Made by a program: the position numbers and the translations under genes
Virus genome (UHGV): UHGV-0106586
Length of the DNA: 61,990 nucleotides
Source: a virus
Strand: one strand, 5' to 3'
The notes under the pieces: model-generated
Seen by the model: only the letters and a program-made list of their open reading frames with translations
Databases searched by the model: none
What the model was told of the DNA's origin: nothing
In this document: positions 1 to 61,990 of the stretch, piece after piece
Layout of the letters: each line of letters opens with the position of its first letter
Numbering within the stretch: the stretch's first letter is position 1

Positions 1-45
1 TTTTTGAATCTCCAATTTAGGATTTAGTGGTAAAGCTCTTTATCT

Positions 46-74
46 GGGGCTTACTTTATCGAACTATAAGCCCC
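46..74. terminator. GC-rich hairpin (ggggctta / taagcccc) just beyond the 3' end of minus-strand gene 87..470
   Basis: 8-bp inverted repeat seen in sequence; no clean U-run, so weak as an intrinsic terminator. Confidence 0.3.
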
Positions 75-86
75 TTGTAAAGTACT

Positions 87-470
87 TTATTTGTTAATTT
101 TGAAGATAGTTACATAACCATCGCTGCCGATGATTTGTGATGCTCCAGCTTTTTCTACTTGATAGCCCATATTTTCAAGATGGTAAACAGCATCATCATA
201 ACCATATGCGCCGCCCTGATAACGTCTCTTATCACATCTTACTAATACCTTTCCACGTCCTGCCAGTGCATTTAGTACGGCTTTTTCACTTGAAAGTGTA
301 CCATCTAACATGGTTGCCGTGTAATGGTTGATTCTATTCCCGTTTACATCATACTTAAAATTGAATGCGTGAACAACAATCAATTTGCCGTTAAATTTTT
401 CATCAAGTGACTTCTCCAGTGCGTTGCGAAAGTTGTCTTTATTGATGAATTTAGGTGCACGATAAGCCAT
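87..470 (-). CDS. hypothetical protein (127 aa)
   Basis: ORF with ATG start preceded by AGGAGA RBS (471-483 on minus strand); no motif recognised. Confidence 0.5.
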   Translation of the reverse strand: MAYRAPKFINKDNFRNALEKSLDEKFNGKLIVVHAFNFKYDVNGNRINHYTATMLDGTLSSEKAVLNALAGRGKVLVRCDKRRYQGGAYGYDDAVYHLENMGYQVEKAGASQIIGSDGYVTIFKINK

Positions 471-45623: not shown

Positions 45624-51445
<5,822 letters not shown>

Positions 51446-51486
51446 TCATTTTTAACCAAGCCTTTGATATATAAGTATTTTCTCTG

Positions 51487-51556
51487 TTAAGCGTGAGCTA
51501 CGTAAAAAATAATTTTTGGTGGGTATATCTGTTCAGAAGATTTCACGTAGCATTCG
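51487..51556 (-). promoter_or_regulatory. conserved ~70-bp element upstream of gene 50615..51406 (copy 1 of 2)
   Basis: Shares blocks ttaagcgtg, tacgtaaa, gtgggtat, atttcacgtagca with 53631-53700. Confidence 0.4.
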
Positions 51557-51563
51557 ACTATTA

Positions 51564-53612
51564 TCAATCATCTTCTGGGAATGATGAACTTAATAGCGTA
51601 GCTTCTGCGTATTGGTCGTAGATATTACTGCTAAAGGTCATAAAGCTGGTTTCATCTGGTTTAATGGCAACTTCACCACCAAGTGAAACTTTCACAGGCT
51701 CCTGAATACGTTTGCTCAAAGCACTAATTTCATCTCTCAGGCTTTGGATATCCGTATTCGTTAATGCCGCATCTTGTCTCATGGTGATTAATTCTGGATG
51801 CTGGAAGTTAGCAAGATTCATAGCTGCACTATTAAACCAACCTTTCACATCGTCCATTGTAAATACTGGCTTAAGTCCAGACTCTTTAGCCAGCTCTGGT
51901 AATTTAGCTTGTGCTTCCATTCGTTCAGGTGTAGAGGCTAATCTTTCATAACCTGCATAGATAGCACTACCAGCTAATAGCATATTCCCAAGATTAAACC
52001 TTGATGGTTTCCCGTTCTTTCTATTCACGTTATCCGCTGTAGTATCAGCGACCTGACCTAATCTTGTGATAGCAGTCATAAGCCCGTAAATACTTCTGGT
52101 TACACCAACAACTTTATTTACAGCAATAACACCAGCCAAGACTTTTAAACTATTAATCAAGCCAGAACCTAAAGCATCAACAACTTTCTTTTGTTCATCG
52201 GTTAAACCACGATAAGCCAATGTCACCTCATCAAAGAACGCCCTTACCCTGTAACTAATATCAGTCAGGTTATCGACACCGTGTGACATAGAAGTCATGA
52301 GATTACCAAGACTTTCACCTAATGTTTTACCACTCCCACCAAGACTATTTAAAAGCGTTGTTAAGCTTCTTGTGAAATCTTGAAGACCATTTTCAGAACC
52401 TCTGAAGATATCCGTTAGTGAGTTGTTCCAAGTATTCTTTAAGTTCCCTAACATCGTCTGCGTAGAGTCCTGAATAGCTTTCCAGCCACCTCTGGAATTA
52501 ATCTGTGAACCAAGTTCTTTAGCAAACTTAGGGAGTGCATCAGAGGCTTTAACATCACCATTTTTCATCTTATCGAAAAGCTGTTTTTCAGTCAGACCTA
52601 AAGCCTTTGCAAATGCCTGAGTAGCACCCGGTAAAGCTTCAGATAGTTGCCCCTTAAGCTCTTCAGCCATCACCTGACCCTTAGAAGCCATCTGCGATAC
52701 TGCGGTTAATGCTCTTTGAATCTGCTCATCTGAACGACCCATTAAACGGGCATATCCAGTTAAGTTTTTAAATAATTCCTCTGAGCCTTCAAGACCCATC
52801 GTATTTTTTGCAGATGCACCAAATGAAGCAAACTGTGCTTGTGTTTCGGTTGTGTCCATACCAGTAATTTGAGTTAAATCTTGAATGAACTTTTTGACCT
52901 GTGTACTTTGGTCACCGAATACGAAATCAATACTTCTTTCCGATGATGCACGTTGAAGGCCAACTTCCATAATCTTCTGATAAGCGGATAGTACAGCCTG
53001 AAAGCTGATAAATGCACCTGCTGTTTTAACTGCTGCTGAACTCAAACTATCAAGACTATTAGCTGCTCTGTCACCGTTAATGCTGGTGGATGTATGACCT
53101 TTAGCTTTAGCAATTGCTTCTCTGACTGAAGCATTTAACTGAGCCAGCTTCTCATTGAATTTTGAATTATCCATCTGACCAGCTTTAGCAGATAGCCCGT
53201 AAAACTGAGATTTGATGTATTTCTGCAAAACAGGGTCAAAGCCCTTTAACTTGCTCATATTCGCTGAGTAAGCTGCTGTGATTGCTCTGTTTCCGCTAAT
53301 TCGTGGCTGTCTTGGTTGTTTTGGAGGATTAATAGCGTCATTAACCTGACTTGTGAAACGGAAAGCTTTTGTGCTTCTTGCTCTCTGTTCAATCTTGTCA
53401 AAAGCCTTATTAAACTTCCTTTCAAGTTGCCCTAAAGAACTTGTCAAATTACTATCAAGCTGTTTTGTATTAATCCTGAAACCTTTATTTAGGTTCTTTT
53501 CAATTCTTTGTGCTGACTGCAAAGCTGCCTTTTCAACTCTTTGCAAGCCTTTAACAACGTTTTCACTGAAGCCTAATTCAACGATAAAACTATCAACTGT
53601 AAATTTGCTCAT
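51564..53612 (-). CDS. tail tape measure protein
   Basis: 682 aa, alpha-helical low-complexity composition, TMP-like core QVMAEELKGQLSEALPGA, position upstream of baseplate genes. Confidence 0.7.
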   Translation of the reverse strand: MSKFTVDSFIVELGFSENVVKGLQRVEKAALQSAQRIEKNLNKGFRINTKQLDSNLTSSLGQLERKFNKAFDKIEQRARSTKAFRFTSQVNDAINPPKQPRQPRISGNRAITAAYSANMSKLKGFDPVLQKYIKSQFYGLSAKAGQMDNSKFNEKLAQLNASVREAIAKAKGHTSTSINGDRAANSLDSLSSAAVKTAGAFISFQAVLSAYQKIMEVGLQRASSERSIDFVFGDQSTQVKKFIQDLTQITGMDTTETQAQFASFGASAKNTMGLEGSEELFKNLTGYARLMGRSDEQIQRALTAVSQMASKGQVMAEELKGQLSEALPGATQAFAKALGLTEKQLFDKMKNGDVKASDALPKFAKELGSQINSRGGWKAIQDSTQTMLGNLKNTWNNSLTDIFRGSENGLQDFTRSLTTLLNSLGGSGKTLGESLGNLMTSMSHGVDNLTDISYRVRAFFDEVTLAYRGLTDEQKKVVDALGSGLINSLKVLAGVIAVNKVVGVTRSIYGLMTAITRLGQVADTTADNVNRKNGKPSRFNLGNMLLAGSAIYAGYERLASTPERMEAQAKLPELAKESGLKPVFTMDDVKGWFNSAAMNLANFQHPELITMRQDAALTNTDIQSLRDEISALSKRIQEPVKVSLGGEVAIKPDETSFMTFSSNIYDQYAEATLLSSSFPEDD

Positions 53613-53630
53613 TGTTCATATTTCACCTCT

Positions 53631-53700
53631 TTAAGCGTGTTGTACGTAAATTCTATTTTTCAGTGTGGGTATTAGCTTTACAGATTTCACGTAGCACACA
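53631..53700 (-). promoter_or_regulatory. conserved ~70-bp element upstream of the tape measure gene (copy 2 of 2)
   Basis: Same conserved blocks as 51487-51556 in the same order and spacing. Confidence 0.4.
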
Positions 53701-53770
53701 TACAAAAAAGGGAGAAACTACCGATGTCACTCGATAATCTCTCCCGTAGATTTTTACCCAACCAATCTTT

Positions 53771-53974
53771 TTACCCAACCAGATAATAATTGCCATCTTC
53801 ACCAACAATCTGACAATCACTTGGTAATTTATCAAGACACCATTTAGCGATTCTTCTGATTCTGTTATTTTGCTTAGAGGTGGATGATTTGATTCGTTTT
53901 GGTTTGTTGGGTTGTTCTTTCAGTCGTTCACTAATTGCCTTGATGAGTTCATAGCGTTCTGTTAAATCAATCAT
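53771..53974 (-). CDS. hypothetical protein (67 aa), N-terminus paralogous to the next ORF
   Basis: MIDLTERYELIK vs MNDLTERDKRIK. Confidence 0.3.
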   Translation of the reverse strand: MIDLTERYELIKAISERLKEQPNKPKRIKSSTSKQNNRIRRIAKWCLDKLPSDCQIVGEDGNYYLVG

Positions 53975-53999
53975 TCACCACCTCCTTTTTAATTCGATT

Positions 54000-54308
54000 T
54001 TAATCTAAGTAGTGTATACACTCGACACCGCGTTCATTCTTTTGAATTTCATAACGTAGTGAAAGACCAGTTTGATAATACACAGTATCAAGCTTATTTA
54101 TCTTATCCTTGAGTTCGATAAGAAGTCGCGTTAAATCATCCCGACCATCACACTTTAGTTCGGCAAGAGGCTTTTCGTCCATACGACCAATAAGATATTC
54201 AGTGACCTCCTGAATATCACCAAGAGTCGTTTTAATTTCATTGAACCTATCTTCAAAAGGTTCCATCACCCCTTTAATTCTTTTATCACGTTCTGTTAAA
54301 TCATTCAT
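54000..54308 (-). CDS. hypothetical protein (102 aa)
   Basis: ORF in track. Confidence 0.4.
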   Translation of the reverse strand: MNDLTERDKRIKGVMEPFEDRFNEIKTTLGDIQEVTEYLIGRMDEKPLAELKCDGRDDLTRLLIELKDKINKLDTVYYQTGLSLRYEIQKNERGVECIHYLD

Positions 54309-54316
54309 TAATCACC

Positions 54317-55027
54317 TCAAATAGCCTTTGCATATTTCTGAGAAATCTTCATTAACTGCTCAATATCGGCTTGCATAGCAATCTTCTTCTGTGATTCATA
54401 TTCACTAACAAGTTCTTTCATAGCCTGAAGCTCTCTTGAGAGATACAACTTAACATTTTCAAGTTGCTTGTTACGTGATGCCAAGATGTTCTGTCTAGCA
54501 AGTTCACAGAGTTCTTCATCGCTCTTATTAGTCATATAAATAAATTGACCAGCACCCCTTGAAGCTTTAACCATCTTCACAATTCGATATCCGTCAGGAA
54601 GATTATTAATCACGTCTGGGATATTCTCAGGAAAAGTACCAAAACCATCATTATCTTCGTATTGGTAATAGACAAATGGTTTCTGTGACAATTCATCCTG
54701 AATCTCAAATTCTGACGGCTCAATAGCTGATTGCATCAGGGTAACTTTGCTGTAAGCGTCATCAAGTTTAATACGCTGTGCTTTTAACTGTGGGTAATAT
54801 TCACGCTCAAGATTAAATAGTGCTTCACTTTTGCAGATATCTGGCATTTCTTGAGGCTCAGGAGACACAAAGGTAATTTCCTTTGGTGACATCTTTAACG
54901 ATTGCTCAAGCTTAATTCTTTCATCGTGTTCTTTACGCTGAATAGTGATAGCTGGATGTTCAGTCTGTGGCGACCAGTCACCGAAGCTATCAACCTTTCT
55001 GCCATTAATGTAAATATCATTTGTCAT
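54317..55027 (-). CDS. hypothetical protein (236 aa)
   Basis: ORF with ATG and GAGGAAAT RBS. Confidence 0.45.
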   Translation of the reverse strand: MTNDIYINGRKVDSFGDWSPQTEHPAITIQRKEHDERIKLEQSLKMSPKEITFVSPEPQEMPDICKSEALFNLEREYYPQLKAQRIKLDDAYSKVTLMQSAIEPSEFEIQDELSQKPFVYYQYEDNDGFGTFPENIPDVINNLPDGYRIVKMVKASRGAGQFIYMTNKSDEELCELARQNILASRNKQLENVKLYLSRELQAMKELVSEYESQKKIAMQADIEQLMKISQKYAKAI

Positions 55028-55553
55028 TATAATTTCCTCTAAGTGTGATTATTTCTTAATAGAGCACCTTCAACGCCAATACACTTAGAAGATGACTTAA
55101 CGATTTATTAAAGATGCTCTATAAAGAAAAGCCCTAAACATAGGTTCATCCTCATCTGTGAAGGGCTTTGGAGGTTTGCTTTAACGTTAACGAAGTTTCA
55201 GGAAAAAGTTCTGTTTGAAAACTCTTAAAGAAACGCCCTAACTCATGATTAGGGCAAAGCTGTAAAGGGTTCAATGAATGAATGATTAAGCACTTTTTGA
55301 GATAGCCTATCTAGTGTGGGCTAAATAGGCCATGACGAAAAGCATTGCACCTTTCCAACTCAGAATATAGTTATCATCGATGTAGAGACGATTAATATTT
55401 TAATTCAAGGAGAATTGCTCTCCCTATATATACAATTATGTCATGCTCAAGGTTATTTGTCAACAGCTTTTTAACAGATTGGTAACATTTATACTTTAAT
55501 AGATGCACCTGCAATCATACCAATCAATACAAAACAGATAATCACCAATTCCA

Positions 55554-55877
55554 TTAATGCACCACCTTCGAATCCGTCACCAAAATATTGTCAGCGTACA
55601 AAATTGCTATAGCTGCCTTGAGATATCTTTCAGGGCTAATACTGTATTTGTTCGTTTGCTCGATAACCAATCTTTTCATGTTGCTGTCTATAATTGGTAG
55701 CATCATTCGAGGCTCGTTAAACTCCACCGACTGAATAAAGTCTTCAATTACTTCTGAGTTATCAGCCATTAGCCTTAACAGCCTGTCAAAGTCAATGCTA
55801 ACACCTACATCAGTGAAAGCCTGAATCATCATAGCGGTGTCGTTATCAACGAAAATCTGTAATGGGTAATTGTTCAT
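55554..55877 (-). CDS. hypothetical protein (107 aa from ATG 55877)
   Basis: ATG with AAAGGAGA RBS. Confidence 0.45.
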   Translation of the reverse strand: MNNYPLQIFVDNDTAMMIQAFTDVGVSIDFDRLLRLMADNSEVIEDFIQSVEFNEPRMMLPIIDSNMKRLVIEQTNKYSISPERYLKAAIAILYADNILVTDSKVVH

Positions 55878-56032
55878 TTTTAAAATCTCCTTTTTACCAG
55901 ACCTCCTCAATCGCTCTGTAACGAGCTAAACAGTCTTTTTCAGGGGTAGCCTGTACAGTGGTATTACCCACCCTAAAATAAGATAGTTTTTTGCGTTAGA
56001 ATGCGATTGAGAGCGCCTGAGAAGCTATTTTT

Positions 56033-56320
56033 CTAATTTCTCTTAAAGTCTCGGACTTGCATAAGATTTTTTGGTCTGGTATCGGCTCTGTTACCATTTC
56101 GATGGATAATTTGCTTGTTGGATTGATAGCCATGATAAAGGAACCAGACAACATATTTCACGTAGAAAGTATATCGGCCTATATTAAATGTTTTGTTGCC
56201 GTAGTCGTCGGTATTTATCGTGACTGACTCTCCATCAGACCAGCACAGGGAATCACTGGATTCATCATAGATAAGGTGTTCTGTAAAATATCGTCTAACA
56301 TCTTCATGCCAAGGTTTCAT
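56033..56320 (-). CDS. truncated/degenerate HNH-like protein (N-terminal HNH region only, no AP2 domain)
   Basis: LIYDESSDSLCW...FYVKYVVWFLYHGYQ...IIHRNGNRADTRPKNL parallels the N-terminal halves of the intact HNH-AP2 proteins but with substituted catalytic positions. Confidence 0.4.
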   Translation of the reverse strand: MKPWHEDVRRYFTEHLIYDESSDSLCWSDGESVTINTDDYGNKTFNIGRYTFYVKYVVWFLYHGYQSNKQIIHRNGNRADTRPKNLMQVRDFKRN

Positions 56321-56532
56321 AAAACCTCCTCACCCCAATAACCTAATTCAATCTTGTGACGCTCAAACCATTCCGGTTTAACTGCTGTTTTCAGTACTTC
56401 ATTTGGGCCAATGGCTTTAATGAAAATATCTTTTGAGTTATGGATGTCACCGAATCCGTTTCCCTTAATCAGGAGGTCGGAGATGTGGCGAATCATTTTA
56501 TCCGTGTGGTATTCAAAGGTAACGCATAGCAT
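56317..56532 (-). CDS. hypothetical protein (71 aa)
   Basis: ORF in track. Confidence 0.35.
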   Translation of the reverse strand: MLCVTFEYHTDKMIRHISDLLIKGNGFGDIHNSKDIFIKAIGPNEVLKTAVKPEWFERHKIELGYWGEEVL

Positions 56533-56810
56533 TAAACCTCCATCGCTAACTTGTGAATCTTAAGACTCAATAGACGGGCAATATCAATCTTAAAGCCGTT
56601 AAGTGCCTTCAAAGTATCTAAAGCGTCCTGAGTAATTCGGATGTGCTTACGACCTTTAGAGACTGGATATTTAAGTAAATCCGACTCAGTGACCTCTTTA
56701 GCAATTGCAAGCTGCATTACAGTTTGATGAGGCAAGTTAGTAGCTCGTTTAATTCTGGTAAGCTCGTTAAAAGCTTCCTCTGAAATACGGGTTAATGTGT
56801 GTTTATTCAT
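56532..56810 (-). CDS. hypothetical protein (92 aa)
   Basis: ORF in track. Confidence 0.4.
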   Translation of the reverse strand: MNKHTLTRISEEAFNELTRIKRATNLPHQTVMQLAIAKEVTESDLLKYPVSKGRKHIRITQDALDTLKALNGFKIDIARLLSLKIHKLAMEV

Positions 56811-57368
56811 TTAAAATTCCTCTGTAACTAAATACGGGTCAAACTCGAAATCTGGTTGCTCGTTTTCCATTGGCTCAATATTCCCAACGGCAATATGATG
56901 TTCAACAATACCAATTAGCTTTGCACACATTACAGCAAGCAAAGCGCAATATTTATCGCTTGGTAATTCATGGCTAAGTCTGGTTGCTTGTCTTTGAAGA
57001 TAATTTGTCACGCTGGCTGCGTTAATTTCGTCAAGATTCTTTAGAAGATAAAATAGTTTTTTGTTGTATTTCGGGTGGCCTTCACTTCTACAGAATCCAA
57101 TGAAAATATCATCAAGCTTACTTGGTAGTTGCTCGTAAGAATCAAAGTTAGCCAGATAATTTTTAATAGTGTTCTGGGTGCTCTTTCTGGTTGGCATAAA
57201 TCTGTCTCGTGGCGTAATGCTACGAATTACTTCGTCAATGCCTTTGCGTTCTTTCTTGGTGAGCTTGGGTAGTTCGTAGCTGGTTGGGTTGTTTGTGTAA
57301 GCGTAGGAGTTGTGCTTGTTACGTTGTCTCGATGCCTGAAGCATCGCTCTAAATTCTGCGTCTCTCAT
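56811..57368 (-). CDS. hypothetical protein (185 aa)
   Basis: ORF in track; first gene of a minus-strand operon. Confidence 0.45.
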   Translation of the reverse strand: MRDAEFRAMLQASRQRNKHNSYAYTNNPTSYELPKLTKKERKGIDEVIRSITPRDRFMPTRKSTQNTIKNYLANFDSYEQLPSKLDDIFIGFCRSEGHPKYNKKLFYLLKNLDEINAASVTNYLQRQATRLSHELPSDKYCALLAVMCAKLIGIVEHHIAVGNIEPMENEQPDFEFDPYLVTEEF

Positions 57369-57419
57369 TCATGTTCCGACCCTCATAAGATGTTATTATT
57401 CTGTTAACTTATATATACA

Positions 57420-57448
57420 ATACTAGCATTTTCAAAGACTAATGTCAA
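57420..57448 (-). promoter_or_regulatory. sigma70-like promoter for minus-strand operon 57368..55554 (-35 TTGACA, 17-bp spacer, -10 TAGTAT)
   Basis: Read from reverse complement of 57420-57448. Confidence 0.35.
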
Positions 57449-57473
57449 GTATTTTTTAACATTTTATTAACAT

Positions 57474-57486
57474 CTGTGGTATAATG
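57474..57486 (+). promoter_or_regulatory. extended -10 promoter-like element (TGGTATAAT), plus strand
   Basis: TGnTATAAT seen at 57478-57486; no good -35. Confidence 0.35.
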
Positions 57487-57612
57487 GTTCTATGGGGAGA
57501 GTAAAATATAAAGGCGTGGCTATGAGGTTTATTCGATAGGGGTTGGTACAAGCCCAACTAACCGAATCAACTATGTATGTCACATGGTATTGCATTGCAC
57601 ACAGGAAATTTA

Positions 57613-57789
57613 ATGGTAAATCTCCCTCCTGAACTGGGGTCACCTGATGTATGGGCTGGTGGAGGTATCGGGCTGATTGCAGGTCTGTTACTCCGCTACG
57701 TCCTCGTCAGAGTGCTTGTTGTCTTTAAACTGTTCGGTCGTACATGGACGCTTGACCTTAAGGATAATGACCACACGGACCCCCGTTAA
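57613..57789 (+). CDS. small single-pass membrane protein candidate (58 aa), more GC-rich than surroundings
   Basis: AGGAAA RBS then ATG; GGGIGLIAGLLLRYVLVRVLVVF hydrophobic helix. Confidence 0.3.
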   Translation: MVNLPPELGSPDVWAGGGIGLIAGLLLRYVLVRVLVVFKLFGRTWTLDLKDNDHTDPR

Positions 57790-58840
57790 ACCCCCTTCAA
57801 AACCCCTATACCATCTCGTACAGGGGTATCTTTAGCATTTTGTGCTATCTATTAAAAAATAGCTTGACAGAACCAGAAAGCTGTATCTATCAAGTATTCA
57901 CCTCTCTGACAGTGATTTCTAAAAGTTCTTATTTTTCAATAAGTTGTAATTAGCCATATATAGTAGCTGTTCAGCACCTTCACAGATGACTTCAAGCCTT
58001 CTTAGCTATCCACTAAGCGGGAGAAGAGCGATAACCCCAGAGAGGGAAGCTCCCTTCTAATTGGTATTGTTATGAGGATGCTTCATCCGAATCATCTACC
58101 AATCCCTAAACCGACTTTCTTAACCAGCCCTTTACGTTATTCGTTCACAGTGTTGATAAGTGGTTTTGCCCTCTGTTTCTGTTATCATCGGGCTTACCTT
58201 ATCAGGGCTTTGAAATGCCCTGTAACTCCCCTCTTAACGGGAGAGAAAGAACATAGTGACCCCAAGCGAAGCGCCCCTCTAAAAAGATTTTTTAGCTACT
58301 TTGTTTAAAAGCACATCAAACGATACATTTTATTGATTTAGGTCAAAGACAAAAGCATTGACAAAATGGTAAGATTGTTCACATGACCTTACTTAACAGA
58401 TTCTTAAGAGCTTTGAAACAGCCTGTCTAACAAGGTCACTACCTCTGGTCTTATCGTTCCCTCTCTTCTTGGTAGTTCTGTTAAGTATTTTTCAGTTTTA
58501 TTCTTAAGATAATTGTTAAGATAGAACCTACCTTCGGTTTCATGGTTCTCTTCCTCCCGTTAAACAATTCTTCCTAACTATCTACATAATCACTACCAAG
58601 AATCTTACAAGGTAATATCCAGACCTCTTATAGTTGACCTGATACAGAAACATTACAGACATGCTCTCTAGGTTCTGTGTAGTTCCCTTGTTGGGAATAG
58701 ATGCTCCTACAATAAGAGCATCATTAATCTATATACTCCTCTTCCGAGAACTTAATGTTTTTTTAATGTATATCAATCATTATCCAAAATATGATATGAA
58801 GTTTCTTGGTAGTATTACATCAACAAGTTAATTGAAATAA

Positions 58841-59284
58841 GGAATATTATTTAGAAATGGTGTAAAAATCGAGGGTTCACTTGTAAATCCTAAACCAAGA
58901 CAATACCTGGCTTTTGGTTGTCGGATTAATGGTAAGTTCAGAATACTTAAGGTGCATCAGGTTATTTTCTATCTATATCATGGTAAACAAGCTAAACTAT
59001 AGATTGACCATATAGATGGTGACCCGCTAAATAATGCTATTAGCAATCTTCGCGAGGTTACCAAAGAGCAGAATCAGGCAAACATGATACCCAGAAAGAA
59101 AACAAAATCAGGTTACAAGGGGGTACACCCAAGAGTGGATAACAAGGGGTTCTGGGCTACAATACGCTGTAATGGAAAATCTCATTATCTGGGTCAGTTT
59201 AATACAGCAGAAGAAGCTGCAAAAGCCTATGATGCTGCATCACTGGAATTGCATGGTGAATATGGACACAGGAATTTTAGCTGA
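58841..59284 (+). pseudogene. HNH-AP2 homing endonuclease pseudogene: no start codon for the N-terminal part, in-frame TAG at 59000-59002, AP2-domain remnant retained as ORF 59084..59284
   Basis: Hand translation ...VHQVIFYLYHGKQAKL*IDHIDGDPLNNAISNLRE...SGYKGVHPRVDNKGFWATIRCNGKSHYLGQFNTAEEAAKAY parallels the intact copy at 34184..34687. Confidence 0.6.
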
Positions 59285-60237
59285 TAGTTAATAAAGACCT
59301 GACATAAACTTGTCGATAGGTCTGATTAAAGTTTATACAGTGATTTTTCATCTTCTAATTTTTTTATAAAAATCGTAGTAGCCTCTCTACATTCCCCTTC
59401 ACCGATAATCTTCAAAAATATCTACACAGTTGATTCGGTAGAATCTACCTCATGATTGATGGCTGTTAAGTACCCCAGATTCACGATATAGCACCCCCTT
59501 TGCAAAAGCAGTTAAAATATCTATAACCAATTATTGACTTTCTTTATAGCATCTGTTAACTCCACATCAAGAAACCTTTATCACACTTCAAAGCATCTAT
59601 CAAGAAGATTTCACCTATCAATAGATGTAACATTTTATAGTTCTGTGAAGTCCTATCCAGTTTTCTCTGTAACAGACACAAACTTCTGTGACCTTATGTA
59701 TCAATGACTTACAAGACATGCTCTCAAGGTGCTGTATAGCCTCTTATCTTCAAATACACAAAACCCTTATAAATCAGTACTGATACGTATACAGTTCGTT
59801 TTTAACATAATAGCTGTTTTACGCACTAATCGTGTTCTACATGAAATCTGTATAGATATTAAGGTGTCTGTAAGTGATTTTTTAAGAGGAGCTACGAAGA
59901 ACTATAACCATCACCTCCTAACTTTCACATGGGAAACTGTTAAGCAGCTTGATAGTCACTTTGAGGGAATATTGATAGTGACCAACTGCATAGATAGCGT
60001 TATATAGTCCTGTATATAGCACTTTTCTAGGAGTCGAGAGAGGGACGACTAACACGATACAGTTTACCCTGAAAAGAGACTTCACAGATTCTTTATATAT
60101 TTCAATAAGTTATGCTAAAAAGGGACTATATCAATACTGCATAGAATCTGTGTAAAACTGCTTAGATAGTGCATAAATACACCGTTGAATTGCATAATCA
60201 TTCACTGATATTGTCCTGTTATTAACAGGTATGTTCT

Positions 60238-60316
60238 CATAGTTGATTCGGATGTTCTAGGAATCATCCTCATAGTTGATTCGGATGTTCTAGGAATCAT
60301 CCTCATAGTTGATTTA
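60238..60316. repeat. 33-bp tandem direct repeat (catagttgattcggatgttctaggaatcatcct), 2.4 copies, with internal dyad symmetry; ~85 bp upstream of the recombinase-like gene
   Basis: Copies at 60238-60270, 60271-60303 and a partial copy at 60304-60316; related sequence at 59429-59464. Confidence 0.7.
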
Positions 60317-60399
60317 GACCTTGATGATTTTTATTAGACACGTTTAAATACACTACCTAAAGCGATACAATCTAGGTATCAGTTTTGAGGTGGTAAACA

Positions 60400-61659
60400 A
60401 TGAAACGTGTCATTTCATACATTCGTTTCTCATCAGAGAAGCAAGCTAAAGGCGACTCACTCCGCAGACAATCTAAGATGGTCACTGATTGGCTTAAGGC
60501 TCATCCTGAGTACTACCTTGACCAAGATTTATCTTTTCGTGATTTAGGTGTGAGTGGATTCACTGGTAAGCACTTGAAAGGTGGCTTAGGTGACTTCTTA
60601 ACCGCTATCGAGAAAGGGCTTGTTAAAGCTGGTATCAAAGTTTCTAAACGTTGTCCTGCATGGCTTAAGCTTAATGATGACCGTAAAAGCTTCTCTGTGA
60701 TACCTGAGAAAGTGGAGACTGTGAAGAGGTGCTTTCAGCTACGGTTAGAGGGTAAGTCTATCTGGGAGATTGTCAGAACTCTTAATGCTGAAGGTCACCA
60801 GACGCTTAACCAGTACAAAGCAGGTAAGTTTGGTCAAACATCTGTTCAAGACCTTTTGAAGAATCGCTCTGTAATTGGTTACTTCACACCTAAAGGCTGT
60901 GAGGAGATTGCAGGTTATTACCCGTCTGTAATTGATGAAACAACATTCTACAAAGTTCAACAACTATCACATTCTCGTTACGGTAGAAAACCTGCTTCAG
61001 ATAAACCATTGAGTGTGAATCTCTTTAAAGGTGTTATCCGTTGTTCTGAATGTGGTCATGCTTTGATTATCACAGGCTTTAGCGATACAAGAAACGGGAT
61101 TTATCGTTGTCCTCTTCGTAATGAAAACCGTTGTAGTGCTAAAGGACTTTCACGTAAGCAAACCGATGGTACATTGCTTGCCCTGCTATCTCGTCTTGAC
61201 CGATTTGATAGCGATATGACGAATACCATAGACACACTGAAGCTACACCGTGAACACATCTCAAGCAATATTGAAAAGCTGGTACAGCTATCACTTGAAA
61301 TTGAAGACTTGTCCGCTATTACCAGCAAACTAAGACAACTAAAGAATGAGCTATCACAAGTTGATGCGGATATCGAGAAGGAGACACAACGCCTTAAATC
61401 TATTGATGTGGGTTGTTTGTCTGATTGTGACTTGACTACAAAGGCGGGAAGGATTGAAGCACAACTGATAATCAAAAGTGCTGTTAAAGAGGTCGTTTTA
61501 AATACTGCTAAACGTCGCTGTAAAGTAACTTTTCACAACGGTAAAGCAATCACCTTACCAATAACAGAAAACCCCTCAGACAACGTTACAGAGGCTATAC
61601 AGTCGCTTTCTGAAGTCACTGAGAGGGGTTTAATAGATGTTGATGAGGTTATCATATAG
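60400..61659 (+). CDS. serine-recombinase-like protein (resolvase-type N-terminal motifs, recombinase domain, zinc ribbon) with apparently truncated catalytic domain
   Basis: YIRFSSEKQ and DLGVSG motifs; recombinase-domain-like middle; CSECGH...YRCPLRNENRC zinc ribbon; no DRLxR-type motif found by eye. Confidence 0.6.
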   Translation: MKRVISYIRFSSEKQAKGDSLRRQSKMVTDWLKAHPEYYLDQDLSFRDLGVSGFTGKHLKGGLGDFLTAIEKGLVKAGIKVSKRCPAWLKLNDDRKSFSVIPEKVETVKRCFQLRLEGKSIWEIVRTLNAEGHQTLNQYKAGKFGQTSVQDLLKNRSVIGYFTPKGCEEIAGYYPSVIDETTFYKVQQLSHSRYGRKPASDKPLSVNLFKGVIRCSECGHALIITGFSDTRNGIYRCPLRNENRCSAKGLSRKQTDGTLLALLSRLDRFDSDMTNTIDTLKLHREHISSNIEKLVQLSLEIEDLSAITSKLRQLKNELSQVDADIEKETQRLKSIDVGCLSDCDLTTKAGRIEAQLIIKSAVKEVVLNTAKRRCKVTFHNGKAITLPITENPSDNVTEAIQSLSEVTERGLIDVDEVII

Positions 61660-61673
61660 TTGAGATTCTATCG

Positions 61674-61990
61674 TCAGTAGCGCTTGTTAGGATTCACAGA
61701 AAGCTTCTTCAAAGTACTACCTGTACCAGCATTATTAAGCACCTTTGAAGCTTGCTCATTAGCGGCATCTGAGAAGGTGCTTTTTCCGTTCTCAACTTTG
61801 ACACTTCTACCACAATTGATACGGGCTTGAAGTTGCTCATTAGTAAGTTCACTCGTAGAGCGATTATATAGCTCCTGACACATCAACATACCGTTACCTA
61901 AGCTTGTTGTAGTGTTCCCTGTATTCTTCTTAGAAGTAGCACCACCGTCATTTGTAGTAGAAGTCTTTCCAGTGGCTGCTGAAATATCAG
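61674..61990 (-). CDS. partial CDS (3' portion; 5' end lies beyond the window) paralogous to tail gene 50615..51406
   Basis: Open frame runs to the window edge; 61891-61990 is ~88% identical to 50850-50949 (last ~60 nt identical); C-terminus ...LSVNPNKRY vs ...[11 protein letters not shown]. Confidence 0.5.

What the first reader, a model, noticed from the sequence alone, without database searches (positions are those of the whole stretch)
57370..60399. ~3-kb ORF-poor, repeat-rich region in an otherwise densely coding genome
Between divergent promoters at ~57.4 kb and the recombinase-like gene at 60.4 kb there are only short, doubtful ORFs. The region contains an HNH-AP2 pseudogene (58841-59284), two related GC-rich ~50-nt hairpin elements (about 58005-58060 and 58228-58285, sharing cgggaga...acccca...cccTcTaa), a repeated ~28-bp motif agacatgctctc-aggt-ctgt-tag at 58655-58682 and 59711-59739, several hairpins, and the 33-bp tandem repeats at 60238-60316. 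No tRNA-like T-loop motifs were recognised. Candidate explanations are a homing-endonuclease graveyard, structured ncRNAs, a packaging or replication-origin region, or a recombination target.
Basis: seen in the sequence. Interest (0 to 1): 0.7.

Follow-up and report, generated by a model that had tools for sequence, protein, structure and literature searches.

The report
Non-coding arm of a phage-satellite-like island
The 3-kb gene-poor stretch is not part of the Felix O1-like phage: it is the non-coding control region, including the integration site, of an 11.5-kb E. coli chromosomal island caught in its excised circular form, and it copies a piece of the phage's genome end, which suggests a previously undescribed parasite of these phages.

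Summary
57370-60399 has one conserved gene (58 aa), a decayed HNH-AP2 gene, a 33-bp tandem repeat and dispersed repeats. The two "GC-rich hairpins" are not special.

The context was missed. Window 1-50894 is a Felixounavirus (~94% nt). Window 50895-61990 is a circular permutation of an 11,497-bp island: serine recombinase, Dit, tape measure, eight small genes and ~3 kb of non-coding DNA. It sits in yecE or near wrbA in about 10% of complete E. coli genomes. Positions 60308-60353 are its attP. The attL, attR and empty attB sites reconstruct exactly.

The contig's last 55 nt repeat 50895-50949, so the island closes an 11,041-bp cycle in the assembly graph.

The non-coding DNA holds conserved divergent promoters, a variable cargo slot, length-variable repeats and about 130-350 nt homologous to the Felixounavirus terminal-repeat left boundary (predicted cut 59468|59469). 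All island variants lack GATC and have 38.6% GC, as Felixounaviruses do.

Best reading: the cis-acting arm of an undescribed satellite-like island, with attP shown and packaging mimicry inferred. It is unresolved whether the phage-island join is an assembly chimera or a true cointegrate.

The parts
50895..61990 (.). Circularly permuted (excised, attP-form) copy of an ~11.5-kb E. coli integrative island. Order: Dit, TMP, eight small genes, non-coding arm, attP, recombinase, Dit C-terminus. Cycle length 11,041 bp.
   Evidence: 98.8-99% identity to the island in yecE of E. coli MS10495. The window's last 55 nt equal 50895-50949 exactly. The independent contig L005 closes the same circle: 11,008 + 162 nt = 11,041 + 95 + 33.
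57420..57485 (.). Back-to-back divergent sigma-70 promoters. The leftward one serves the 185-aa-gene operon; the rightward one serves the 58-aa gene.
   Evidence: Consensus scan gives 10/12 and 11/12, both with TG. The hexamers are invariant in five island variants.
57537..57577 (-). Repeat unit carrying TAGTTGATTCGG. It is present in some island variants and absent in others.
   Evidence: The same unit sits at the el.3 site of L024.
57613..57789 (+). Conserved 58-aa small membrane-protein gene. This is the only conserved ORF in the stretch.
   Evidence: Intact in L020, L022, L023, L024 and L025. Third-position divergence is far higher than at positions 1+2. It is called as a gene in two assemblies and annotated in strain ES5.
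57802..57826 (+). Terminator-type hairpin followed by a T-rich tail.
   Evidence: -13.2 kcal/mol, z = -2.8. It is present as its own reverse complement in L020, L022, L024 and L025, so the stem is preserved.
57909..58003 (+). 95-bp unit of a variable-number tandem repeat.
   Evidence: One copy here, two in L005 and L023, at least three in L006, and 1.9 in L022 and L025.
58051..58108 (+). el.1: a quasi-palindromic ~58-nt unit with TTGGTA...TACCAA ends. It is related to the 33-bp repeat unit in reverse orientation.
   Evidence: 96-100% identical to non-coding DNA of phages NBEco004, NBEco005 and EC106, in either orientation. A second copy lies next to attR in L023. Hairpin z = -2.2.
58367..58622 (+). 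el.2 block: homologous to sequence inside the Felixounavirus terminal repeat.
   Evidence: blastn and nhmmer hits to SP22, EC106, JH2 and Moogle, all within their non-coding region.
58841..59284 (+). HNH-AP2 homing-endonuclease pseudogene in the island's cargo slot (about 58850-59320).
   Evidence: PHROG 99 and Pfam AP2 hits. The gene is an intact 174 aa in L020, L023 and L025. The slot holds a Dam-type methylase in L024.
59327..59574 (+). el.3 block: homologue of the left boundary of the Felixounavirus direct terminal repeat. It includes the unit AGTTGATTCGGTAGAATCTACCTCATG (59425-59451). The predicted cut-site equivalent is 59468|59469.
   Evidence: 93% identity over 45 nt to more than 25 Felixounaviruses. 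nhmmer E = 3e-12. Alignment A1. The 613-bp DTR of Ro111lw starts, and the pEP20 record opens, at CTGCTT|GGTAGCCC.
59638..59739 (+). Second copies of two short repeats. 58473-58499 is repeated at 59638-59664, and 58657-58682 at 59714-59739. Together they bracket the cargo slot.
   Evidence: families D3 and D4. Both are present in L020.
60236..60314 (+). 33-bp variable-number tandem repeat. Each unit carries TAGTTGATTCGG, and the last partial unit forms the left arm of attP.
   Evidence: TRF gives 2.4 copies at 100%. L005 and L007 have 3.4 copies. In L023 it is replaced by an inverted el.1-type unit.
60308..60353 (.). attP of the island's large serine recombinase: GTTGATTTAGAC-cttgaTGATTTTtattagacac-GTTTAAATACAC. 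The shared core TGATTTT is at 60325-60331.
   Evidence: The window junction equals the left half of attR joined to the right half of attL of the integrated copy. The reconstructed attB is 100% continuous in intact yecE of 5,139 genomes. The junction is absent from all 5,426 complete E. coli genomes.
60400..61659 (+). Large serine recombinase with an in-frame 88-aa deletion that removes the ESLDRLSR catalytic motif.
   Evidence: Pfam Resolvase, Recombinase and Zn_ribbon hits. Relatives are 507 aa. The deletion is mapped.

Best explanation
The stretch is the non-coding, cis-acting arm of an ~11.5-kb integrative island of E. coli, Shigella and Salmonella. The metagenome assembler captured the island as an excised circle or concatemer and joined it to a Felixounavirus contig through shared Dit sequence.

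**Shown**
- The island integrates through a large serine recombinase whose attP is at 60308-60353.
- The arm starts with a conserved divergent promoter pair.
- It encodes one small membrane protein followed by a terminator.
- It contains a cargo slot, occupied here by a dead HNH-AP2 gene.
- It contains two length-variable tandem repeats.
- It contains a family of quasi-palindromic units built around TAGTTGATTCGG.
- It contains two blocks homologous only to the Felixounavirus non-coding genome-end region. One of these spans the phage's terminal-repeat left boundary.
- The whole island lacks GATC and has the phage's G+C content.

**Inferred**
- The island is a satellite-type parasite of virulent Felixounaviruses.
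- After excision at attP, the terminus-like block (cut site near 59468|59469) lets the helper terminase recognise and package island DNA.
- Packaging is probably as a multimer.
- The repeat units may act as protein-binding sites for packaging and/or helper-driven replication.
For: **Island identity and mobility**
- the island is found in 550 of 5,426 complete E. coli genomes. It has the same architecture at yecE and, in strain ES5, between wrbA and ymdF, where a different serine recombinase is present.
- attL, attR, attP and attB reconstruct exactly.
- The attP junction occurs only in metagenome contigs: the window, L005-L008 and L030. It never occurs in complete genomes.
- k-mer-length overlaps close the circle.

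**Link to the phage**
- Every island match to Felix loci falls inside the phage's non-coding region.
- The strongest match spans the DTR boundary, which is defined independently in Ro111lw and pEP20.
- An exact 29-mer is shared with Felix phages.
- Five island variants have 0 GATC against about 40 expected each, while flanking chromosome has 41-67. GATC absence is a genus trait of Felixounavirus (PMC5477317, PMC4690856).
- G+C is 38.6% in the island, 38.7% in the phage and about 50% in the host flanks.
- The island's Dit N-terminal part is about 94% identical in nucleotides to phage Dit, and the TMP ends are conserved.
- The other island genes tested are absent from 50,697 phage records.

**Function of the arm**
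- Promoter conservation.
- The small ORF is under purifying selection.
- All five copies of the motif with at most one mismatch lie in the 3 kb.
Against: - No experiment or read-level data show induction, replication or packaging.
- Only the left DTR boundary has an island homologue. The right boundary does not.
- The 11-bp phased CTTAACAG arrays of the phage region are missing.
- The bases at the predicted cut itself are not conserved.
- The 27-nt core unit is absent from one phage (Ro111lw) and one island (L020), so it cannot be essential on its own.
- Non-coding divergence between variants (8-15%) is close to third-codon-position divergence (10-25%). Most of the 3 kb is therefore only weakly constrained.
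- No replication gene was recognised.
- The window's recombinase is probably dead.
Confidence: 0.55

Rival explanations
1. True cointegrate. The circular island has recombined into the phage genome by a single crossover in the shared Dit sequence. The 3-kb region is then physically part of a roughly 98-kb recombinant Felixounavirus genome and travels with it. The island either hitch-hikes by homologous recombination or is a phage-borne moron.
For: - The contig runs without a break from phage baseplate genes into island TMP and on to a second Dit copy.
- The recombinase is deleted and this form is never found in chromosomes, as expected for a copy that no longer integrates.
- Island and phage share at least 500 nt at about 94% identity.
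Against: - The contig ends exactly one k-mer (55 nt) into the repeat, which is the signature of an unresolved graph cycle.
- The hybrid Dit protein exists in no other contig of the collection.
- No phage record among 50,697 carries the island arm or its genes.
- An extra 11 kb would exceed the 83-90 kb range of the genus.
Confidence: 0.15
2. The island is real, but its 3-kb arm has no cis-acting role beyond attP and the promoters. It is a hotspot where cargo genes such as HNH-AP2 and Dam methylase come and go. The rest is decayed filler, including scraps picked up from phages by recombination.
For: - The cargo slot has alternative contents.
- Repeat units come and go, and most of the arm evolves near the synonymous rate.
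- Short el.1-type units occur in either orientation in different phages.
Against: - About 2.4 kb of non-coding DNA is kept in every variant examined, including those with a different recombinase and integration site.
- No protein remnants are detectable.
- GATC is still completely excluded from it: 0 against 10-13 expected.
- The phage-homologous block is specifically the genome-end boundary.
Confidence: 0.2
3. The arm is mainly a helper-dependent replication origin. The repeat units and tandem arrays act as iterons for an island or phage initiator, as in the non-coding region of the V. cholerae PLE. On this view it is not a packaging signal.
For: - Reiterated motif copies are confined to the arm.
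- There are AT-rich tracts at 59321 and 58281.
- An uncharacterised 185-aa gene starts right beside it.
- The position of the Felixounavirus origin is unknown and could lie in the same non-coding region.
Against: - No initiator, helicase or primase homologue was found.
- The 185-aa protein could not be modelled (pLDDT 47).
- Motif copies vary in number, spacing and orientation, and are dispensable in some variants.
Confidence: 0.2
4. The region encodes structured non-coding RNAs, meaning tRNA-like or regulatory RNAs.
For: Long stretch without ORFs. A few local hairpins are present: the terminator at 57802-57826 and el.1.
Against: - No tRNA.
- No Rfam hit, even at E<=10.
- The alignment-based fold scan of six variants found nothing beyond the terminator.
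- The proposed GC-rich hairpins have z near 0.
Confidence: 0.05

Closest known systems
PLE (phage-inducible chromosomal island-like element) of Vibrio cholerae, satellite of the virulent myovirus ICP1
   Same: - Small chromosomal island that uses a large serine recombinase.
- Associated with a virulent myovirus.
- Has a long non-coding region with repeats.

These PLE properties are from my own knowledge of the PLE literature and from the abstract of 10.1101/2024.04.22.590561.
   Different: - No RepA-type initiator and no other PLE gene was detected.
- Different host and different helper.
- Carries helper-type TMP and Dit genes.
- GATC-free like its presumed helper.
PICMI (phage-inducible chromosomal minimalist islands) of Vibrionaceae
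   Same: Minimal satellites of virulent phages without capsid-remodelling genes, packaged as concatemers (abstract of PMC10803314). The 11,041-bp cycle here would fit eight copies into one 88-kb Felixounavirus headful.
   Different: No shared genes were tested or seen. This island is larger, has tail genes and uses a serine recombinase. Packaging is not shown.
P4 and PICI-type satellites that carry their helper's cos or pac site
   Same: The idea of a short helper-identical cis site embedded in otherwise unrelated satellite DNA. Here that is a 29-nt exact match and 93% identity over 45 nt, against no similarity elsewhere in the arm.
   Different: - The helper uses direct terminal repeats, not cos or headful pac.
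- Only one of the two repeat boundaries is mimicked.
- No primase, AlpA, terS or capsid genes are present.
Felixounavirus non-coding genome-end region, about 1.7 kb between convergent operons, holding the 581-613-bp direct terminal repeat
   Same: - Homologous blocks el.2 and el.3.
- Shared TAGTTGATTCGG unit.
- C-over-G skew.
- No GATC.
- Repeat-number variation. PMC5968733 reports a 33-bp repeat difference between VSe11 and VSe102.
   Different: - The island arm is twice as long and flanked by outward-facing genes.
- It has promoters, a gene, a cargo slot and attP.
- It lacks the 11-bp phased CTTAACAG arrays and the right repeat boundary.
attP sites of large serine integrases (phiC31, Bxb1 type)
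   Same: About 46 bp with imperfect dyad symmetry around a short core. It lies directly upstream of the integrase gene and integrates inside a host gene.
   Different: The left arm is the last unit of a 33-bp tandem array whose copy number varies. The integrase of this copy is internally deleted.

Membership tests
Large-serine-recombinase integrative element (attP/attB system) | attP next to the recombinase gene: a short core flanked by imperfect inverted repeats | tested here: met
   The site is 60308-60353, with GTTGATTTAGAC facing GTTTAAATACAC across a 22-nt centre. It lies 47 nt upstream of the gene.
Large-serine-recombinase integrative element (attP/attB system) | Hybrid attL and attR in integrated copies, and an exact empty attB | tested here: met
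   attL and attR were read in L023. The reconstructed attB is 100% continuous in yecE of 5,139 genomes. The island is 11,497 bp.
Large-serine-recombinase integrative element (attP/attB system) | Complete catalytic domain in the recombinase | tested here: not met
   The window copy lacks 88 residues, including the ESLDRLSR motif. Relatives are an intact 507 aa.
Phage satellite (general definition) | Chromosomal island with its own integrase but no capsid, terminase or lysis genes | tested here: met
   The gene content is recombinase, Dit, TMP, an HNH gene and seven small genes with no family match.
Phage satellite (general definition) | Excision and amplification when the helper infects | tested here: inconclusive
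   The attP form is seen only in metagenome contigs, tied in the assembly graph to a Felixounavirus. No time course or coverage data are available.
Phage satellite (general definition) | Carries the helper's packaging signal | tested here: inconclusive
   There is homology to the DTR left boundary. There is none to the right boundary. Function was not tested.
Phage satellite (general definition) | Packaged in helper virions and transferred | not testable with these tools
   Needs virion DNA or transduction assays.
PLE | RepA-type initiator with an iteron origin, and PLE-specific genes | tested here: not met
   No such domain appears in any island protein.
PICI / cfPICI / P4-like | Tyrosine integrase, AlpA, primase-replicase, and terS, capsid or Psu/Sid-type genes | tested here: not met
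   None was detected. The integrase is a serine recombinase.
Felixounavirus terminal-repeat region | Left repeat boundary sequence | tested here: met
   Alignment A1. Ro111lw and pEP20 fix the boundary at CTGCTT|GGTAGCCC.
Felixounavirus terminal-repeat region | Right repeat boundary and 11-bp phased CTTAACAG arrays | tested here: not met
   Local alignment scores are at the shuffled level. TRF finds the arrays in the phage loci but not in the islands.
Felixounavirus genome signature | No GATC, and about 39% G+C | tested here: met
   There are 0 GATC in five island variants and 38.6% G+C. The genus trait is reported in PMC5477317 and PMC4690856.
tRNA or any Rfam RNA family | Covariance-model or ARAGORN match | tested here: not met
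HNH-AP2 homing endonuclease | HNH and AP2 domains in an intact reading frame | tested here: not met
   The domains are recognisable. The 5' end is deleted and there is an internal stop. Relatives are intact.

The most novel reading that the evidence does not exclude
An undescribed and common family of 11.5-kb satellites, or hyperparasitic islands, of virulent Felix O1-like phages. It occurs in about 10% of complete E. coli genomes and also in Shigella and Salmonella.

- The islands are GATC-free like their helper.
- They carry helper-type tape-measure and distal-tail genes.
- They use a 3-kb non-coding arm that imitates the helper's genome end to get packaged.
- The variant in this window has a dead integrase and appears to live only outside the chromosome, either as a non-integrating satellite or riding inside the phage genome.
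Probability: 0.45. Interest if true: 0.85.

Novelty: new variant of a known kind. Interest (0 to 1): 0.75.

Why it matters
- Felixounaviruses are widely used for Salmonella and E. coli typing, biocontrol and therapy. No satellite of them turned up in the library searched here.
- An island in one of ten E. coli genomes that excises, shares the phage's tail genes and genome-end sequence, and obeys the phage's total ban on GATC would be a new helper-satellite pair in the best-studied bacterium.
- It could explain strain-to-strain differences in sensitivity to these phages.
- It would give a direct handle on two open points: how Felix O1-type terminases recognise their genome ends, and why the genus excludes GATC.
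- It is also a practical warning. Metagenomic 'phage' contigs can be phage-island composites joined through shared tail genes.

Tried and rejected
- **tRNA cluster.** Felix O1 relatives carry about 20 tRNAs, but none is in the window.
- **Known RNA families.** None found.
- **Conserved RNA structure.** An RNAalifold window scan on six variants gave only the terminator hairpin. The large z-scores elsewhere came from near-zero energies.
- **GC-rich hairpin elements.** Not more stable than shuffles.
- **Hidden protein remnants.** No PHROG hit at E<0.01 for any ORF in the arm.
- **Homology of the window's 33-bp repeat to the '33-bp repeat' reported in phage VSe102.** The phage arrays are 3 x 11-bp CTTAACAG repeats, so I do not claim this.
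- **Island counterpart of the phage's right repeat boundary.** None found.
- **DnaA boxes and IHF sites.** No meaningful enrichment.
- **Function of the 185-aa and other small proteins.** No Pfam, PHROG, NCBIfam or PADLOC match. The AlphaFold model was too poor to search (pLDDT 47).
- **CRISPR-like reading of the 95-bp repeats.** Rejected, because the 'spacers' are identical.
- **Chimeric misassembly of the TMP-to-recombinase stretch.** Rejected. It is the true order of a circular permutation and is reproduced in independent assemblies.
- **Literature.** Searches for a Felixounavirus satellite, for this island, or for its RefSeq protein accessions found nothing.
Full report
**1. What the window is**

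The window is a whole metagenome contig, NODE_478_length_61990 from ERZ1304109.

- Positions 1 to about 51.4 kb are collinear with Felixounaviruses at 92-95% nucleotide identity. An example is CRP22, positions 80543 down to 29206.
- Synteny breaks at the tape-measure gene (51564-53612). Only the two ends of that gene match Felix phages.
- In Felix O1-type phages the chaperones, tube, sheath, capsid and terminase genes follow at this point.
- The window instead has eight small minus-strand genes, the 3-kb stretch in question, a serine-recombinase gene (60400-61659) and a second, partial Dit-like gene running off the contig end.

**2. The observation**

- The stretch is ORF-poor. The longest ORFs (92, 78, 57 and 56 aa) are interrupted in related copies.
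- None of the ORFs in the stretch matches a phage protein family at E<0.01.
- One ORF is real. The 58-aa product of 57613-57789 is a predicted membrane protein. It is intact in five diverged copies, and changes are concentrated at third codon positions.
- A hairpin terminator follows it at 57802-57826 (z = -2.8). In other copies the hairpin is present as its own reverse complement.
- The divergent promoters at 57420-57485 are strong consensus matches. They are nearly invariant among variants.
- The HNH-AP2 pseudogene, the 33-bp tandem repeat (60236-60314) and the 26-nt repeat pair are all confirmed.
- The two 'GC-rich hairpins' are weakly similar sequences that fold no better than shuffles.
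- There are no tRNAs and no Rfam families.
- An alignment-based fold scan found no conserved structure other than the terminator.

**3. The region belongs to a chromosomal island**

- The block 53650-61670 matches the chromosomes of 550 of 5,426 complete E. coli genomes. In 121 of them the match covers at least 80% of the block, at up to 98.7% identity.
- In strain MS10495 the element is 11,497 bp and splits yecE. Its order is:
  - yecE 5' part
  - recombinase (507 aa)
  - Dit ('phage baseplate protein')
  - TMP (682 aa, identical to the window's)
  - eight small genes
  - about 3 kb of non-coding DNA containing an intact 174-aa HNH-AP2 gene
  - yecE 3' part
- Joining the chromosomal sides of attL and attR gives a sequence found uninterrupted, at 100% identity, in yecE of 5,139 genomes.
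- The window sequence at 60300-60345 is the left half of attR fused to the right half of attL. This is the attP of the excised element. The shared core TGATTTT is at 60325-60331, and the imperfect inverted arms are GTTGATTTAGAC and GTTTAAATACAC.
- The window order (Dit-TMP-small genes-arm-attP-recombinase-Dit) is therefore a circular permutation of the island.
- The contig's final 55 nt are identical to 50895-50949. Fifty-five is the assembler's k. The MEGAHIT contig L005 ends with 127 nt identical to 50943-51069, and the SPAdes contig L007 with 55 nt. All of these assemblies thus contain a cycle.
- The cycle is 11,041 bp in the window. L005 plus the missing 162 nt gives 11,170 bp, which equals 11,041 + one extra 95-bp unit + one extra 33-bp unit.
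- A diverged variant with an intact recombinase was also found in attP form, in an unrelated assembly (L030).
- The attP junction is absent from all 5,426 complete E. coli genomes and from IMG/VR.

**4. The island family**

- The same architecture occurs at yecE (L023, L024). In strain ES5 (L025) it lies between wrbA and ymdF, with a different serine recombinase.
- Relatives in IMG/VR lie next to a lambdoid prophage.
- The 185-aa protein has homologues in E. coli, Shigella, E. fergusonii, E. albertii and Salmonella. All are annotated as hypothetical.
- The 185-aa and 236-aa proteins have no tblastn match in 50,697 phage records.
- No small protein has a family match in Pfam, PHROGs, NCBIfam or PADLOC.
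- I found no paper describing the island.

**5. Anatomy of the arm across variants**

- Four diverged copies keep the arm at 84-94% identity in three blocks: 57370-58058, 58106-58850 and 59321-60231.
- Between the last two blocks lies a slot with alternative contents: HNH-AP2, a Dam-type methylase, or nothing.
- A 95-bp unit (57909-58003) varies from one to at least three copies.
- The 33-bp unit varies from 2.4 to 3.4 copies. In MS10495 it is replaced by an inverted, shorter relative.
- A family of units shares TAGTTGATTCGG followed by a short inverted repeat. All five copies with at most one mismatch lie within these 3 kb, and none lies in the other 59 kb.
- Individual units are present or absent at a given site, both in islands and in phages.
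- Overall divergence of the arm (8-15%) is only a little lower than third-position divergence in the neighbouring genes (10-25%). Constraint is therefore patchy.

**6. Link to Felixounavirus genome ends**

- Against all phage records, the arm matches only short islands of sequence in the non-coding region of Felix O1 relatives.
- With nhmmer, every hit between six island arms and six phage loci falls inside that non-coding region and none falls in the flanking genes.
- In these phages the region lies between convergent operons. It holds the 581-613-bp direct terminal repeat (PMC6454146, PMC8303462).
- The Ro111lw record carries both 613-bp repeat copies.
- The Ro111lw repeat starts at CTGCTT|GGTAGCCC. 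The pEP20 record ends and begins at exactly the same point.
- The strongest island-phage match is 93% over 45 nt, extending to about 130-350 nt, and it straddles this boundary (alignment A1). The equivalent position in the window is 59468|59469.
- A 29-mer of this block is shared exactly with several Felix phages, and with another island variant.
- A second block (58367-58622) matches sequence inside the phage repeat.
- The right repeat boundary has no island counterpart.
- The phage's 11-bp phased CTTAACAG arrays are also absent from the island.

**7. An independent signature**

- GATC does not occur anywhere in the window.
- It is absent from the Felix part: 0 against about 178 expected.
- It is absent from five independent island variants: 0 against about 40 expected each. 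The chromosome on either side has 41-67 per 10-12 kb.
- It is also absent from the phage loci examined.
- Lack of GATC is a reported trait of the genus (PMC5477317, PMC4690856).
- Island G+C is 38.6%, against 38.7% for the phage part and about 50% for the host flanks.
- The recombinase and the island-specific small genes have no phage homologues, yet they obey the rule too. This is therefore not simply inherited phage DNA. The island seems to be under the same selection as the phage.

**8. Interpretation**

*Shown:*
- The stretch is the non-coding arm of an integrative island.
- It ends in attP.
- It begins with the island's promoter hub.

*Inferred:*
- The island is a satellite-type parasite of virulent Felixounaviruses.
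- The arm supplies cis signals copied from the helper's genome end. These most plausibly serve terminase recognition and cutting near 59468|59469, and possibly also helper-driven replication.

*Further points consistent with this reading:*
- The island's Dit and TMP share their interaction-prone ends with the phage proteins.
- The excised form turns up only in metagenomes, entangled with a Felixounavirus.
- The window's variant has a recombinase lacking its catalytic ESLDRLSR segment.
- That 419-aa form is never seen on chromosome-size contigs. The TMP, by contrast, occurs in hundreds of chromosomes.
- Eight copies of the 11,041-bp cycle equal 88.3 kb, about one phage genome. I note this without giving it weight.

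**9. What remains open**

- The join between phage and island inside Dit may be an assembly chimera through a shared repeat. I think this more likely, because the contig stops one k-mer into the repeat, the hybrid Dit is unique to this contig and no phage isolate carries the island.
- Alternatively it is a real cointegrate formed by a single crossover.
- Induction, replication and packaging are untested.
- Much of the arm could be tolerated filler around a few functional sites.

Noticed in passing
window 1-61990: GATC is completely absent from the whole contig. The Felix part has 0 against about 178 expected, and the island part has 0 against 39-48 expected. Five other island variants also have none, while the adjacent E. 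coli DNA has normal counts.
   Followed up: yes
window 60400-61659: The serine recombinase has an in-frame 88-aa deletion that removes the ESLDRLSR motif. This exact 419-aa form is on record only on contigs of 62 kb or less, never on chromosomes.
   Followed up: partly
window 50615-51427 and 61674-61990: There are two Dit-like copies. The first has a Felix-type C-terminus and the second an island-type C-terminus. They become identical from 50895 (= 61936) onwards. The hybrid first copy is found in no other contig of the collection.
   Followed up: partly
window 51564-53612: The island tape-measure protein (682 aa) shares only its first ~45 residues and its 3' gene end closely with the Felixounavirus protein (742 aa). 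Overall identity is 31%. Together with Dit, it might enter or poison helper tails.
   Followed up: no
L024 11675-12337 (E. coli ET82) and other variants: In many island variants the cargo slot holds a DNA N6-adenine methyltransferase instead of HNH-AP2. This is curious for an element that contains no GATC.
   Followed up: no
L030 62-116: A diverged, excised island variant has a different repeat in its arm: 2.4 exact copies of a 23-bp unit containing the palindrome-like TGACATTTTGTCAC. No exact match was found in IMG/VR. The right end of the contig is Nextera adapter sequence.
   Followed up: partly
window 57933-57945 and 60099-60111: Two copies of TTTCAATAAGTTR, one mismatch from the IHF consensus, bracket almost the whole non-coding core. 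Both are kept in L020.
   Followed up: no
window 56033-56320: A second, intact small HNH endonuclease gene (95 aa) sits inside the island's leftward operon. Some variants have a different gene at this position.
   Followed up: no
window 1-118: The first ~100 nt of the contig resemble a sequence present three times in the early region of a Moogle-like phage (L034 6770-8528). This may explain why the contig breaks there.
   Followed up: no
L020 1-9900: In one metagenome the island lies directly beside the tyrosine-integrase end of a lambdoid prophage. The same metagenome (3300045988) also yielded a 93.8-kb Felixounavirus contig (L039).
   Followed up: no
L001, L002, L010, L011 (Felixounavirus non-coding regions): The phage terminal-repeat region is built of 11-bp phased CTTAACAG-type repeats, with 31-bp and 62-bp higher-order units. 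This suggests a protein that binds one face of the helix.
   Followed up: no
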